A DNA stretch of 15,933 nt from a virus (taxonomy: Duplodnaviria > Heunggongvirae > Uroviricota > Caudoviricetes), in the IMG/VR virus record IMGVR_UViG_2667527666_000007. One strand, written 5' to 3'. Positions 1 through 3,000 of the stretch are shown piece by piece; position 1 is the stretch's first letter, and every line of letters begins with the position of its first letter. A program made the position numbers.

Positions 1-3000
1 ATGAGCAGAGCACTTAACAAACTGAGCGATACACAGCTGAGGAAAATCAACGGCACACCTGCCCAAAAAACAGCCTTTCTTAATGACGGTGGAAACCTGA
101 GCGTCAGGCATTCAACCAGTGGCCTTTTAACCTGGTATTTCACTTACAGGGCCGGAACGGGAAGGGGGGCACCACCGGAACGCATTAAGCTGGGAAATTA
201 TCCTGATCTGAGCCTGAAATCAGCCAGGGAAAAAGCCGCCCAGTGTCGCGCATGGCTGGCAGAGGGGAAAAATCCACGTCATGAGCTTAATTACACCGTA
301 CAGGAAGCGTTAAAGCCGGTAACGGTTGGCGATGCGCTCACCTACTGGCTTGAGTCGTACGCAAAGGAAAACCGCGTGGATTATGCCGCCCTGAAAAAGC
401 GCCTTAATAATCACGTAATACAGCACATTGGTGCTATGCCGCTGGATAAATGCGAGCTACGGCACTGGCTGGCCTGTTTTGACCAGGTGGCAAAGCGAAC
501 GCCTGTTACTGCCGGATTCTTGCTACAGACGTGCAAACAGGCGCTTAAGTTCTGCCGGAGGCGGCGCTATGCAATCAGCAACGTTCTTGATGATATGAGT
601 GTGGCGGACGTTGGGAAAAAACCGGATATAAGCGAGCGTGTCTTAAGCACCAAAGAACTGGGCGAATTATTGCAGGCACTGGACAAAAAAATATTCTCCC
701 CCTATTACATCGCGTTAATCCGCCTCCTGATTGTGTTCGGATGCCGGACGGTAGAACTGAGGTTATCGGAGATCAGCGAGTGGGATTTTACCGAAATGCT
801 CTGGACCGTGCCGAAAGAACACAGCAAAACGAAGGTGGCAATATTCCGGCCCATACCGGAAGCAATACTGCCGTTCGTCACGCAGCTGGTGGAGCAGAAC
901 AGGCACACGGGCTTATTGCTGGGGGAAGTGAAACAGGAAACAAGCGTGTCGCAGTACGGCAGATTAGCGCACAGGAGGCTAAATCACCCTCACTGGTCAC
1001 TACATGACATCCGGCGCACCTTTACAACGATGCTGAGCGATTTAGGCGTGGATCCTCACGTCGTGGAGCAGCTTACAGGCCACCAGATGCCAGGAATGCA
1101 GCGAGTTTATAATCATTCCCGTTATCTGGATGCTAAACGCAATGCGCTGGATATGTGGATGGAGCGGTTAGGGATACTGGCGGGAACACATGAAAACGTA
1201 ACCGCACTACCAGCAGCCAGAAGAAAATAATTTTTTTCGTGTTTTTTCAGTATGCGCATACTGGATAAGCACACAGATACAACGGCGAACAATGTGAAAC
1301 AACGTGGAACAACCACGAACAAGAGGCGAAAAAGTACACAGGTTTATAAGTGACTGATTTTATTTGTGTGACTGTTTTTTTATACATTAGCGAATAACGC
1401 TTTAACGCGTGAGAAAAAAGGCATGAAACAATATTTTATGCCTTTGTATTAACATGAATTTAAAAGATTTTATTCTTACTGTTTCATTTTCTGTAAATCA
1501 TACATCCTCAATATTTGCCATTCATCACTCTAGCGGGAACAATACGACACAATAAGACACCTGATGACTCTTTAAGAAACGAAAGGGGGGCAATAGTGTT
1601 AAGCACTGATCGGTTTATACGTGAAAAAGAATGCGAAAAACTAACCGGCCTTAGCCGTACGTGTCGCTACCGCCTGGAAAAGGCCGGACAATTCCCATCA
1701 CGTCGTAAACTTGGCGGTCGTTCCGTTGGCTGGTCTTTATCCGAGGTTCTGGCCTGGAAGGATAGCTGCAAGGCAGTTCATTAATCACGCTGGCGGTACG
1801 CAGCCGCCACACATCAATCATCTGAACACAGAGCTATAACCATGAAGATTGAATATACGCCAGAACGTAGGCGGGGATTCGTTCGCCCTGGTGAAACTGA
1901 AAAACAACAAAATTGGGGTTTTTCAGGCATAAAAAAAGCGGCCCCGAAATGGAGCCGCCTTTCTGAACAGATAACCCGCTGCGCCGTTTGTGTGTGTGAT
2001 CCCAAACATAAGAACGGCAATGATAGTCGCTATCAGTCTGGTTCAGTTCGTTGCCATACCTGCAATGAGCGCTTTTCCCTGTATTCTTTAAGGAATTGCT
2101 CAAGGGCAAAAGCACATGGCGCGAATCTTTCTGATTCATGCTCTATCTTTCTGCGCCGTCTTTTCCGTGCCGGTGATAATGTTTTGGTCAATTCTTTATC
2201 GGTCATTGTGTTGTCCTGCATAGCAATGCGCCGTAATACCTCACACCACGGCGCTGATAGTTTTTATCCTTTGGGTTCTATGCCGCGTTGCTGTAATTCT
2301 TTGCGGAGAACGCGTTTAATCCAAGTGGCTAAAGATGTGTCGCCATCGGCCTTAGCTGCTTCTTCTAGCTGCGCTCTGAAGTCTTCCGGTAATCGCATTT
2401 GGTATGGAGGCGAACGTTTTTCTAATGGTGTTGACATGGTAATTACCCTTCATTACTATACCTACATGGTAATTACCATTGTACTTGCCATTACACAAAA
2501 ATCAACGCCCCGCAGTGCTGGGAACACATACGGGGCGTCTAACCAACAACGTAAACTAGGAGCCGTTATGGTTGCCGTAAATCATATACCACACCTTGTA
2601 CACACACAAACGGCCTTTGTGTGGCGTTTTCTGGCACTGAGTGCCGGAGAATCTCAAATCATCCACGTAACCGCCTGGACGGAACGCGAAGCGCGTAGCC
2701 GTTGCCCGTCCGGTTGTGTTGCTGTATTCGCCGCCCGTATTCGTCAGGGGGTGTGCCATGCCTGACATGACCAATTACCAGTACCTGATTAATCAGCATT
2801 TTAACTGTGAGCATGATATTGCTAAAAAGGTTTATTCCGCTGCGGATGGGGCTACTGACAATATATCAATGGCTGTTTCGTCAATTGGTAGCCTGATGTG
2901 GTATGCGTCAGAAAATAAGGAATATGACGAAAAGGCCATGCGCATTGATATGGGTAATATCGGTTTGTTACTGGCAATGCTTGGACAGTTTAATATTTCG

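What the first reader, a model, noticed from the sequence alone, without database searches (positions are those of the whole stretch)
1294..1322. Three-decamer repeat element present three times at operon boundaries (1294-1322 inverted, 6822-6850, 14334-14352)
Each copy is a head-to-tail array of roughly 10-bp units (TTGTTCGTGG, TTGTTCCACG, TTGTTTCAC). Copies A and B share 25 identical bp and copy C shares an 18-bp core. Ten-bp phased direct repeats are how Xis/Vis/AlpA-type proteins bind DNA. The locations fit a dual role: C near the right junction (excision directionality), A between int and alpA (autoregulation), B ahead of the head/packaging operon (activation after induction). This would be the element's internal regulatory code.
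Basis: partly seen in the sequence, partly recalled or inferred. Interest (0 to 1): 0.65.

Follow-up and report, generated by a model that had tools for sequence, protein, structure and literature searches.

The report
Candidate AlpA operator repeats in a cf-PICI
A phage satellite integrated in E. coli carries short TTGTTC repeats, one per DNA turn, at its chromosome junction, beside its master-regulator gene alpA and in front of its capsid operon. They are most likely docking sites for that regulator, an ordinary kind of control element that had not been mapped for these satellites.

Summary
TTGT[TG][TC]-N4 decamers in strict 10-bp register form arrays at 1273-1322(-), 1533-1562(-), 6811-6851(+) and 14324-14363(+). 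Two more arrays lie upstream of int, outside the window.

The window is a capsid-forming PICI inserted between roxA and phoQ. About 70 relatives keep the arrays at the same places. The hexamer is fixed and the 4-bp spacer varies freely.

At both att arms the array abuts a doubled 12-mer, GGTGTAGTYAAT. That doublet changes whenever the integrase arm-binding segment changes, so the doublet is the Int arm-type site and the arrays are not.

The arrays match the experimentally defined sites of the TorI excisionase in prophage KplE1: GTTCG cores at a 10-bp period.

Array B sits 25 bp upstream of a phylogenetically conserved promoter for the capsid/packaging operon.

Best reading: cooperative binding sites for AlpA, the satellite's 62-aa winged-helix excisionase/activator, serving excision, alpA control and late-operon activation. 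Binding is untested.

Caveat: B persists in satellites whose AlpA is only 46-58% identical and that lack the other arrays.

Verdict: a new member of a known kind, of moderate interest.

The parts
1..1230 (+). int: P4-type tyrosine integrase with an N-terminal arm-DNA-binding domain
   Evidence: Pfam Arm-DNA-bind_3, Phage_int_M and Phage_integrase. 97% identical to the EcCICFT073 Int.
1273..1322 (-). Array A. Read on the minus strand: TTGTTCGTGG TTGTTCCACG TTGTTTCACA TTGTTCGCCG, then a degenerate TTGTATCTGT. Exact 10-bp register.
   Evidence: Relatives carry 2-6 units at this position. In alignments only the AACAA columns are conserved.
1515..1543 (+). Candidate alpA promoter: -35 TTGCCA (1515-1520), 17-bp spacer, -10 AACAAT (1538-1543)
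   Evidence: Listed by the promoter scan. The hexamers are kept in lineages whose spacer differs. No transcription start site has been mapped.
1533..1562 (-). Array A2. Read on the minus strand: AGGTGTCTTA TTGTGTCGTA TTGTTCCCGC. It overlaps the -10 hexamer and the start region of the candidate alpA promoter.
   Evidence: Kept about 62 bp upstream of alpA in most relatives.
1596..1784 (+). alpA: 62-aa winged-helix excisionase/regulator, the proposed binder of the arrays
   Evidence: Pfam Phage_AlpA, E = 5e-17. PHROG 'excisionase and transcriptional regulator'. PDB 8c3t, an AlpA-family protein. 94% identical to the EcCICFT073 AlpA. Recognition helix and wing are conserved down to 62% overall identity.
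6781..6806 (+). Intrinsic terminator that insulates the late promoter from upstream transcription
   Evidence: A different hairpin plus T-run occupies the same position in the other lineage.
6811..6851 (+). Array B: TTGTAAATTAT, then TTGTTCGTGG TTGTTCCACG TTGTTCACTG
   Evidence: It is an island of conservation between diverged flanks in HK97-type cf-PICI lineages. Spacer bases vary among lineages.
6867..6894 (+). Candidate late promoter (called P_late here): -35 TTTACC (6867-6872), 16-bp spacer, -10 TATTCT (6889-6894). Predicted start near 6901.
   Evidence: Both hexamers and the 16-bp spacing are kept in the two main lineages although the spacer sequence is unrelated. In the further lineages the TTTAC motif recurs, by reading the sequences. 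The window copy is below the consensus-scan threshold.
6900..6971 (+). Structured 5' leader: hairpins at 6900-6923 and 6924-6971
   Evidence: The 176-nt leader folds with z = -5.1. The first hairpin shows compensatory changes.
14324..14363 (+). Array C on the P arm of the attachment site: TTGTGTCTAT TTGTTCCACG TTGTTTCATA, then a degenerate CAGTGCACCG
   Evidence: It is homologous to the array upstream of int in relatives.
14367..14390 (+). Doubled 12-mer GGTGTAGTCAAT GGTGTAGTTAAT: candidate Int arm-type sites
   Evidence: The only exact copies in the window. A second doublet lies upstream of int in relatives. The motif co-varies with the Int N-terminal segment.
14433..14445 (+). Match to the IHF consensus (AATCAATGCCTTA) between the doublet and the att core
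   Evidence: 3 matches in the window against 0.6 expected. Weak evidence.
14465..14474 (.). att core GGGCATATTT, the right junction with the host
   Evidence: From comparing attL, attR and an empty K-12 site. The host match starts at 14465.

Best explanation
The TTGTTC-N4 arrays are cooperative, head-to-tail binding sites for AlpA, the satellite's 62-aa winged-helix recombination directionality factor and activator. One monomer would bind per 10-bp unit, all on one face of the helix.

Proposed sequence of events (inferred):
1. A helper phage switches alpA on.
2. AlpA fills array C on the P arm and the two arrays on the P' arm upstream of int. Each distal array is 3 bp from a doublet of Int arm-type sites. 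This would bend the arms and drive Int-dependent excision.
3. AlpA fills A and A2 in the int-alpA spacer and adjusts its own expression. A lies upstream of the candidate alpA promoter. A2 lies over its -10 hexamer and start region.
4. AlpA fills B, centred about -56 to -88 from the predicted start. There it would activate the otherwise weak, terminator-insulated late promoter of the capsid/packaging operon.

Shown here: the arrays, their phasing, their conservation at fixed positions, the att architecture, the promoter footprint, and the covariation that assigns the neighbouring doublet to Int.

Inferred: AlpA binding, and the direction of every regulatory effect.
For: Statistics and phasing:
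- 6 matches against 0.01 expected.
- 79 of 89 unit spacings in distinct arrays of relatives are exactly 10 bp, and unit positions 7-10 carry about 0-0.2 bits.

Positional conservation:
- About 70 IMG/VR relatives and EcCICFT073 keep arrays at the same five places while unit number and spacer bases vary.

Not Int:
- The adjacent doubled motif is GGTGTAGTTAAT wherever the Int segment DGGNLSVRHSTSGLLTWYFTYRAG is identical (Int 77-100% overall).
- It becomes GTGTGGTCAGTT (Int 66-68%), GTGTAGTCAGTG or GTGCAGTCAGTG (55-56%) and TGTGTATTGCA (42%) as that segment changes.
- The flanking (T)TGTTC arrays persist down to Int about 55-68%. Beside the TGTGTATTGCA doublet of the helper-embedded type they shrink to a single unit or nothing.

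Candidate binder:
- AlpA is the only small basic HTH protein common to these elements. Its recognition helix and wing are nearly invariant down to 62% overall identity.

Precedent:
- TorI sites in KplE1 attL have GTTCG/GATCG/GTCCG cores in 8-bp sites 2 bp apart, overlapping the int promoter (PMC2951348). The K-12 sequence reads CAGTTCGTCATGGTTCGCTTCAGATCGT.
- TorI and AlpA are distant homologues.
- RDFs generally bind direct repeats one helical turn apart, at att sites and at promoters (PMC7498355).

Function in EcCICFT073 (same insertion site, Int 97%, AlpA 94%, arrays A, A2, C and the one upstream of int present):
- AlpA activates its own promoter region, and its overexpression triggers int-dependent induction (PMC6092414).

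Array B:
- It lies 23-25 bp upstream of a -35/-10 pair kept across cf-PICI lineages.
Against: - No binding data exist for any PICI AlpA.
- int and alpA travel together as one module, so no element was found with the same AlpA and an unrelated Int. The assignment rests on exclusion of Int plus analogy.
- B is retained, nearly unchanged, in cf-PICIs whose closest AlpA is only 46-58% identical. One complete helper-embedded satellite, L366, has B as its only TTGTTC array.
- B's invariant TTGTAAATTAT is not explained by a TTGTTC reader.
- A is about 230-270 bp from the candidate alpA promoter, an awkward distance for simple activation.
- In EcCICFT073 AlpA did not change int-promoter activity, although an array lies in that region.
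- 10-bp TTGTTC arrays also occur in unrelated viral contigs, some directly after a large ORF where replication iterons might be expected. The motif alone is therefore not diagnostic.
Confidence: 0.6

Rival explanations
1. Mixed identity. The arrays at the att arms and beside alpA are AlpA (RDF) sites, but array B is read by a different conserved factor. Candidates are a second AlpA paralogue acting purely as a transcription factor, another satellite protein, or a host or helper protein. B's resemblance to A would then reflect a shared motif class rather than a shared binder.
For: - B travels with the HK97-type capsid module, not with the int-alpA module.
- EcCICFT073 has A, C and the array upstream of int but no B.
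- The helper-embedded cf-PICI L366 has B as its only array and carries two AlpA-like genes (48% and 58% identical).
- In EcCIMP1 two AlpA paralogues have split regulator and excisionase roles (PMC11773190).
- The invariant TTGTAAATTAT suggests an extra constraint.
Against: - In this window A and B share 25 identical bp.
- This element has a single alpA.
- The ORF next to B (6468-6770) is acidic and has no DNA-binding family match.
- perC is absent from several elements that carry B.
- The residues of the AlpA recognition helix are chemically conserved even in the 58% paralogue.
Confidence: 0.2
2. The TTGTTC arrays are arm-type binding sites for the N-terminal domain of the integrase. The internal copies A and B would act as regulatory or decoy Int sites.
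For: - Arrays lie in both att arms.
- The Int has an arm-binding domain.
- Arm-type sites are often tandem direct repeats (established knowledge of lambda Int).
Against: - The adjacent doubled 12-mer, not the array, co-varies with the Int arm-domain segment.
- Arrays also occur 1.3 kb and 6.8 kb inside the element, at promoters.
- B is unchanged in elements whose Int is only 42% identical.
- The doublets give four half-sites for an Int tetramer, at about -91 and +142 from the core. This mirrors the -81/+132 doubled motif of helper-embedded PICIs (PMC10111431).
Confidence: 0.07
3. The arrays are boxes for a host OmpR/PhoB-family response regulator. An example is TorR, whose tor boxes I recall as CTGTTCATAT decamers (from my own knowledge). 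The satellite would then be coupled to a host signal.
For: - These regulators bind 10-11-bp direct repeats upstream of promoters.
- Some units read TGTTCA (B unit 3; units near the core upstream of int).
- B's extreme conservation across AlpA types would fit a host factor.
Against: - Unit positions 7-10 are unconstrained, whereas a tor box is conserved over the whole decamer.
- Placement beside Int arm sites in both att arms is the hallmark of an RDF.
- No such link is reported in the papers searched.
Confidence: 0.05
4. The arrays are replication iterons, fragments of a dispersed host repeat, or chance.
For: - The origin iterons (CTGTTCACC, 5197-5414) share TGTTC.
- TTGTTC arrays directly follow a large ORF in some unrelated contigs.
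Against: - The origin region is separate, and its iterons go with the pri allele. EcCICFT073 has a pri only 47% identical and no such iterons, yet keeps arrays A, C and the one upstream of int.
- The B and C regions occur in 415 and 1060 of 5426 E. coli genomes, a median of one place per genome, always intergenic.
- Chance expectation is 0.01.
Confidence: 0.03

Closest known systems
TorI binding sites in attL of the KplE1/CPS-53 prophage (E. coli K-12)
   Same: - 8-bp sites with GTTCG-type cores 2 bp apart, so a 10-bp period.
- Arranged in blocks between the att core and the int promoter (PMC2951348; sequence).
- The binder is a small winged-helix RDF distantly related to AlpA.
- The int gene points inward, with its promoter inside attL.
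   Different: - TorI is only 29% identical to this AlpA over 42 residues and is sub-threshold for Pfam Phage_AlpA.
- In the papers read here, TorI's described DNA sites are all in attL.
- In this element the same motif also sits at the alpA region and at a capsid-operon promoter.
Dual-purpose RDF/transcription regulators: 186 Apl, P2 Cox, P4 Vis
   Same: One small protein binds direct repeats one helical turn apart both at att and at promoters. Binding is cooperative, bends DNA and has relaxed specificity (PMC7498355).
   Different: - Apl and Cox mainly repress the face-to-face early promoters.
- Here the best-defined promoter site (B) is upstream of -35, a position expected for activation of a late morphogenesis operon.
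- No sequence homology with these proteins was tested here.
EcCICFT073 AlpA (experimentally studied PICI master activator)
   Same: - Same roxA/phoQ insertion site, Int 97% and AlpA 94% identical.
- AlpA activates its own promoter region and triggers int-dependent induction (PMC6092414).
- Arrays A, A2, C and the one upstream of int are present.
   Different: - EcCICFT073 lacks array B and the HK97-type capsid module.
- No AlpA operator was defined in that work.
Doubled TGTATTGC motif in attP of helper-embedded PICIs (PMC10111431)
   Same: - It relates to the neighbouring doublet, not to the TTGTTC arrays.
- Two co-oriented doubled motifs sit at fixed distances either side of the core.
- They lie at -81/+132 there and about -91/+142 here, the same 51-bp asymmetry.
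   Different: - The motif sequence and period differ (11 bp there, 12 bp here).
- That paper left the binder open (Int arm domain, AlpA or another protein). The covariation found here favours Int.
Lambda Xis sites X1-X1.5-X2
   Same: Head-to-tail phased RDF sites next to an Int arm-type site, with an IHF-type site between arm and core (established knowledge; IHF-consensus match).
   Different: Different protein family branch, different motif, and one array in a single arm.

Membership tests
RDF (excisionase) operator arrays of the Xis/TorI/Apl type | Two or more head-to-tail direct repeats spaced about one helical turn apart | tested here: met
   3-5 units per array in exact 10-bp register.
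RDF (excisionase) operator arrays of the Xis/TorI/Apl type | Located in att arms, next to Int arm-type sites | tested here: met
   C lies 3 bp from the doubled 12-mer and about 130 bp from the core. The equivalent array plus doublet lies upstream of int in relatives.
RDF (excisionase) operator arrays of the Xis/TorI/Apl type | A cognate small winged-helix RDF is encoded by the element | tested here: met
   alpA at 1596-1784, Pfam Phage_AlpA, PHROG excisionase/regulator.
RDF (excisionase) operator arrays of the Xis/TorI/Apl type | The RDF physically binds and bends these sites, and excision depends on them | not testable with these tools
   Only indirect support: AlpA overexpression induces int-dependent excision/replication of EcCICFT073 (PMC6092414).
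Dual-function RDF/transcription regulator sites (Cox/Apl/Vis type) | The same repeat motif at promoters away from att | tested here: met
   A and A2 beside alpA. B lies 25 bp upstream of the conserved late promoter.
Dual-function RDF/transcription regulator sites (Cox/Apl/Vis type) | Promoter activity changes when the protein is supplied | not testable with these tools
   Published only for the alpA promoter of EcCICFT073. Nothing is known for the late promoter.
Integrase arm-type sites | Restricted to att arms and co-varying with the Int arm-binding domain | tested here: not met
   Arrays also occur at 1.3 kb and 6.8 kb inside the element. B is unchanged with a 42%-identical Int. The doubled 12-mer meets this test instead.
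Replication-origin iterons | Clustered at the origin next to the rep/pri gene and co-varying with it | tested here: not met
   The origin repeats are at 5197-5414. The arrays persist with a 47%-identical pri in EcCICFT073.
Dispersed host repeats (REP/ERIC-like) | Many copies per genome, independent of the mobile element | tested here: not met
   The B region is in 415 and the C region in 1060 of 5426 genomes, a median of one place per genome.
Lambda CII-type activator sites (TTGC-N6-TTGC) | Two repeats straddling the -35 hexamer | tested here: not met
   B ends 15 bp upstream of the conserved -35, TTTACC. The definition of the family is from my own knowledge.
Q-like antiterminator loading site (P. 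aeruginosa AlpA and its binding element) | A single binding element between -35 and -10, bound by a multi-helix protein that inserts into the RNA exit channel of RNA polymerase | tested here: not met
   This AlpA is 62 aa and consists of the winged-helix fold only. The arrays are tandem and lie upstream of -35. The P. aeruginosa protein is larger, with at least eight helices and DNA-contact residues numbered to 142 (PMC9371919).
Host OmpR/PhoB-type response-regulator boxes (e.g. TorR tor boxes) | The whole decamer is conserved, and regulation depends on a host signal | tested here: inconclusive
   Unit positions 7-10 carry about 0-0.2 bits, unlike a full-decamer box. No host-factor test was possible.

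The most novel reading that the evidence does not exclude
Array B, the invariant TTGTAAATTAT, the conserved promoter and the structured leader would together form a portable late-expression cassette. The leader includes a start-proximal hairpin with compensatory changes and, in this lineage, a terminator-like hairpin that covers the capsid gene's ribosome-binding site.

This cassette would move between satellites with unrelated integrases. It would be switched on by an AlpA-type reader of TTGTTC repeats independently of any helper-phage late activator. RNA-level control by the leader (antitermination or translational unmasking) would add a second gate. One 62-aa protein would then time excision, its own synthesis and capsid production.
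Probability: 0.2. Interest if true: 0.6.

Novelty: new member of a known kind. Interest (0 to 1): 0.45.

Why it matters
AlpA is the master switch of Gram-negative phage-inducible chromosomal islands, yet none of the papers searched defines its DNA target. This work provides three things.

- A concrete candidate operator, TTGTTC-N4 in 10-bp register.
- A map of the attachment-site architecture: arrays, Int arm-type doublets and an IHF-like site.
- A candidate promoter for the capsid/packaging operon of capsid-forming satellites. Its region is present in about 8% of complete E. coli genomes.

Together these make directly testable how a satellite couples excision to building its own capsids. The repeats and the doublet could also help annotate and subtype PICIs.

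Tried and rejected
- **Separating AlpA from Int by finding the same AlpA with an unrelated Int.** This failed. int and alpA move as one module in every locus retrieved. I used covariation of the neighbouring doublet with the Int N-domain instead.
- **Genome-collection scan with AlpA.** It returned only 3 loci, 2 of them irrelevant.
- **Motif-to-protein test.** I scanned IMG/VR for three phased TTGTTC units. It recovered diverged cf-PICIs, which was useful, but most hits were unrelated contigs. Their neighbouring ORFs gave no consistent link to AlpA-like genes, and some looked like iterons after a large ORF.
- **Rfam searches.** Nothing at curated thresholds for the whole window, and only sub-threshold noise for the two regulatory regions.
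- **A leftward promoter with B-like geometry next to array A.** None is credible. The consensus scan of the int-alpA region gave only two rightward candidates.
- **P. aeruginosa AlpA-style antitermination.** Rejected, because that protein is a different, larger one.
- **PerC and the ORF upstream of B as binders.** Rejected. perC is absent from some elements with B. The ORF product is acidic and has no DNA-binding family match.
- **The palindrome CGTGG-N5-CCACG inside A and B.** Not conserved in C or in the other B lineage.
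Full report
**What the window is.** The window holds a complete capsid-forming phage-inducible chromosomal island (cf-PICI).
- Its genes run in one direction: int (1-1230), alpA (1596-1784), a D5-type primase-helicase (3366-5198), ssb, a PerC-like gene, then the packaging genes up to 13402. The packaging genes encode an HK97-type capsid, protease, portal, head-completion protein, connector, HNH, TerS and TerL.
- Origin-like inverted repeats lie at 5197-5414.
- The element sits between roxA and phoQ. 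phoQ occupies 14473-15933 on the minus strand, and the match to empty-site K-12 genomes starts at 14465.
- Comparing attL and attR of a 97%-identical relative with the empty site gives a 10-bp core, GGRCATATTT, at window 14465-14474.
- The window begins at the int start codon, so the left att arm is outside it.

**Check of the observation.** It is confirmed.
- TTGTTYNNNNTTGTTY matches six times, only at the three reported places, against 0.01 expected.
- A and B share a perfect 25-nt inverted match, and C shares the 15-nt core.
- TTGTTC itself is not enriched (13 found, 10.6 expected), but 8 of the 13 copies lie in the arrays.
- Same-strand spacings are 10, 20 or 30 bp in 14 of 17 close pairs.
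- Reading the sequence extends the arrays. A has four good units and one weak unit (1273-1322, minus strand). C has three good units and one weak unit (14324-14363). B is preceded by TTGTAAATTAT (6811-6821). A further 3-unit array, A2, lies at 1533-1562 on the minus strand, just upstream of alpA.

**Conservation.**
- Sixty-nine IMG/VR contigs with AlpA at least 87% identical and Int 83-100% identical keep arrays at five fixed places. These are upstream of int, at A (2-6 units), at A2, at B and at C.
- EcCICFT073, the PICI on which AlpA was studied, lies at the same roxA/phoQ site. Its Int is 97% and its AlpA 94% identical. It has all the arrays except B, and its capsid module is of a different type.
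- In alignments of the int-alpA spacer only the AACAA columns of A are conserved. Spacer bases and unit number drift.
- Among 53 distinct arrays, 79 of 89 spacings are exactly 10 bp, and unit positions 7-10 carry almost no information. Positions 1-6 of that matrix are fixed by the search pattern, so only the spacer result is informative.
- A more distant group (Int 77%, AlpA about 66%) has GTTCG-type units in the same orientation upstream of alpA.
- The B region occurs in 415 and the C region in 1060 of 5426 complete E. coli genomes, typically once per genome and always intergenic. This rules out a dispersed host repeat.

**Attachment-site architecture, and which protein reads what.**
- Immediately after C comes a 3-bp gap and then a doubled 12-mer, GGTGTAGTCAAT GGTGTAGTTAAT (14367-14390). 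These are the only exact copies in the window.
- In relatives the same composite module (four 10-bp units, 3 bp, then the doublet) lies upstream of int. It ends 22 bp before the start codon. A second, weaker five-unit array lies between it and the core.
- The doublet centres are about 91 bp upstream and 142 bp downstream of the core. This parallels the -81/+132 doubled TGTATTGC motif reported for helper-embedded PICIs (PMC10111431).
- The doublet tracks the integrase. Elements that share the exact Int segment DGGNLSVRHSTSGLLTWYFTYRAG (overall Int identity 77-100%) all have GGTGTAGTTAAT.
- Where that segment changes, the doublet becomes GTGTGGTCAGTT (Int 66-68%), GTGTAGTCAGTG or GTGCAGTCAGTG (55-56%), or TGTGTATTGCA (42%).
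- The flanking (T)TGTTC arrays persist through these changes down to Int of about 55-68%. Beside the TGTGTATTGCA doublet of the helper-embedded type they shrink to a single unit or nothing.
- I therefore assign the doublets to the Int arm-binding domain and the arrays to another, more conserved protein.
- An IHF-consensus match lies between the doublet and the core (14433-14445). This is weak evidence.

**Why AlpA.**
- It is the only small basic helix-turn-helix protein shared by these elements.
- Its recognition helix and its wing (LGGRSVGW) are nearly invariant down to 62% overall identity.
- It belongs to Pfam Phage_AlpA and to a PHROG annotated as excisionase and regulator. It matches a solved AlpA-family structure, 8c3t.
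- Recombination directionality factors as a class bind head-to-tail repeats one helical turn apart, at att sites and sometimes at promoters (PMC7498355).
- The closest precedent is TorI of prophage KplE1. Its five attL sites have GTTCG, GATCG or GTCCG cores, and three of them are 8-bp sites 2 bp apart overlapping the int promoter (PMC2951348).
- The K-12 sequence reads CAGTTCGTCATGGTTCGCTTCAGATCGT. That is the same motif class as TTGTTCGTGG and GTGTTCGCTG here.
- TorI and this AlpA are distant homologues: 29% identity over 42 residues, pairwise E = 6e-5.
- In EcCICFT073, AlpA activates its own promoter region, and its overexpression causes int- and pri-dependent induction (PMC6092414).
- I found no paper that defines a PICI AlpA binding site.

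**Array B and the late promoter.**
- Aligning the region upstream of the capsid gene across cf-PICI lineages shows an island of conservation between unrelated flanks. It consists of TTTTGTAAATTAT followed by three TTGTTC units.
- Upstream, every lineage has an intrinsic terminator, built from different sequences.
- Downstream, 23-25 bp after the last unit, comes TTTAC(C/A). Exactly 16 unconserved bases follow, then TAT..T. About 6 bp further on comes a hairpin whose stem shows compensatory changes. TTTAC recurs at a similar distance in the more distant lineages, by reading the sequences.
- In the window the -35 is 6867-6872 and the -10 is 6889-6894, so the predicted start is near 6901. The hexamers score 8 of 12, below the scan threshold, which is why one search lists no promoter. 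The support for it is phylogenetic.
- The units are then centred near -56, -66, -76 and -88. Those positions fit activation from upstream rather than occlusion.
- B's spacer bases vary among lineages (GTGG, GCGG or GTGT; CACG, CAGG, CAGA, CTGG or GTAG, and so on) while GTTC stays in register.
- perC is absent from several elements that carry B. The ORF next to B is acidic and has no DNA-binding family match.

**Caveats.**
- B moves with the capsid module, not with int-alpA.
- It is retained in satellites whose closest AlpA is only 46-58% identical. These include helper-embedded PICIs whose att arms lack TTGTTC arrays.
- One complete such element, L366, has B as its only array and encodes two AlpA-like proteins.
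- This fits a division of labour between AlpA paralogues, as described for EcCIMP1 (PMC11773190). It equally allows a different reader for B. I give that mixed model 0.2.
- The role of A is unresolved. It lies about 230-270 bp upstream of the best alpA promoter candidate (TTGCCA, 17 bp, AACAAT; 1515-1543), and I found no promoter with B-like geometry beside it.
- A2 overlaps that promoter's -10 hexamer and start region. This would suggest repression at high AlpA levels, whereas published data show net activation.

**Other rivals.**
- *Replication iterons.* They share TGTTC, but they sit at 5197-5414 and follow the pri allele.
- *Lambda CII-type geometry.* Not met, because the arrays lie upstream of -35.
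- *Antitermination as by P. aeruginosa AlpA.* It involves a different, larger protein and a single site between -35 and -10.
- *A host OmpR-family regulator such as TorR.* It cannot be excluded, but it is disfavoured by the uninformative spacer positions and by the att context.
- *Unrelated contigs.* 10-bp TTGTTC arrays also occur there, so the motif alone is not diagnostic.

**Verdict.** The repeats are real, conserved and functional-looking. They are best explained as AlpA operator arrays linking excision, alpA control and capsid-operon activation (confidence 0.6).
- This is a new member of a well-known kind, the binding-site arrays of dual-function RDFs. It is not a new mechanism.
- Its value is a concrete, testable operator and promoter map for a widespread satellite family.

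Noticed in passing
window 14367-14390; relatives L001 2955-2978, L199, L205, L388, L226: A doubled 12-mer, GGTGTAGTYAAT, lies 3 bp after array C and again just upstream of int. Its sequence changes in step with the beta-strand segment of the Int arm-binding domain across five Int lineages. It is therefore a strong candidate for the Int arm-type site. Its placement parallels the doubled TGTATTGC motif of helper-embedded PICIs.
   Followed up: yes
window 6867-6894: A candidate promoter of the capsid/packaging operon: TTTACC, 16 bp, TATTCT. The hexamers and spacing are conserved in the two main cf-PICI lineages despite unrelated spacer sequence, and TTTAC recurs in more distant ones. It is insulated by an upstream terminator at 6781-6806.
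   Followed up: yes
window 6900-7061: The roughly 160-nt leader is highly structured (z = -5.1). The hairpin at 6900-6923, next to the predicted start, shows compensatory changes among lineages and keeps a GACG loop. In this lineage a terminator-like hairpin plus T7 run (7027-7058) covers the AGGA just before the capsid gene's ATG. This could be RNA-level control (stability, antitermination or translational masking).
   Followed up: partly
window 1415-1448: A conserved hairpin between int and alpA (AAGGCAT...ATGCCTT) has a compensatory change in one lineage. It is flanked by an A-run upstream and only a weak T-run downstream. It therefore reads as a better intrinsic terminator on the minus strand, which might mean a short leftward transcript or a bidirectional terminator.
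   Followed up: partly
window 5197-5414: An origin-like region downstream of the primase gene: inverted blocks of GGTGAACAG/CTGTTCACC iterons (56-nt arms, 75% complementary). The iterons are absent from EcCICFT073, whose pri is only 47% identical.
   Followed up: partly
window 6425-6448 and 6779-6802: Two 92%-identical copies of the same terminator hairpin (ACAGCCGGAG.AATCCGG.TTTTT) flank the small ORF at 6468-6770. EcCICFT073 has one copy, followed by unrelated sequence. This suggests that module exchange happens at this hairpin.
   Followed up: no
window 13025-13042 and 14195-14212: A perfect 18-nt inverted repeat (ATCAGGCTGGTGGGCTTT / AAAGCCCACCAGCCTGAT) with arms 1152 nt apart. One arm is inside terL and the other is in the non-coding right end. 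Unexplained.
   Followed up: no
window 14433-14445: A match to the IHF consensus (AATCAATGCCTTA) between the Int arm-type doublet and the att core. This is the position expected for a bending site in an attachment site.
   Followed up: partly
locus L366 (IMGVR_UViG_2917393062_000003), 1206-16450: A complete helper-embedded cf-PICI inserted in a prophage terL-like gene. It carries two AlpA paralogues (48% and 58% identical to this AlpA), and array B is its only TTGTTC array. It is a natural test case for which paralogue reads B.
   Followed up: partly
locus L136 1-285: This metagenomic contig starts with the P-arm doublet, runs through the core and continues into the P' arm and int. It therefore appears to capture the excised, circular attP form of a related PICI.
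   Followed up: no
window 1842-2765: The 307-codon ORF has no Pfam match. Its C-terminal 50 residues match the Icd-like cell-division-inhibitor family. RefSeq annotations of relatives instead call small minus-strand genes (YlcI/YnfO family) in this stretch, so the gene structure here is uncertain.
   Followed up: no
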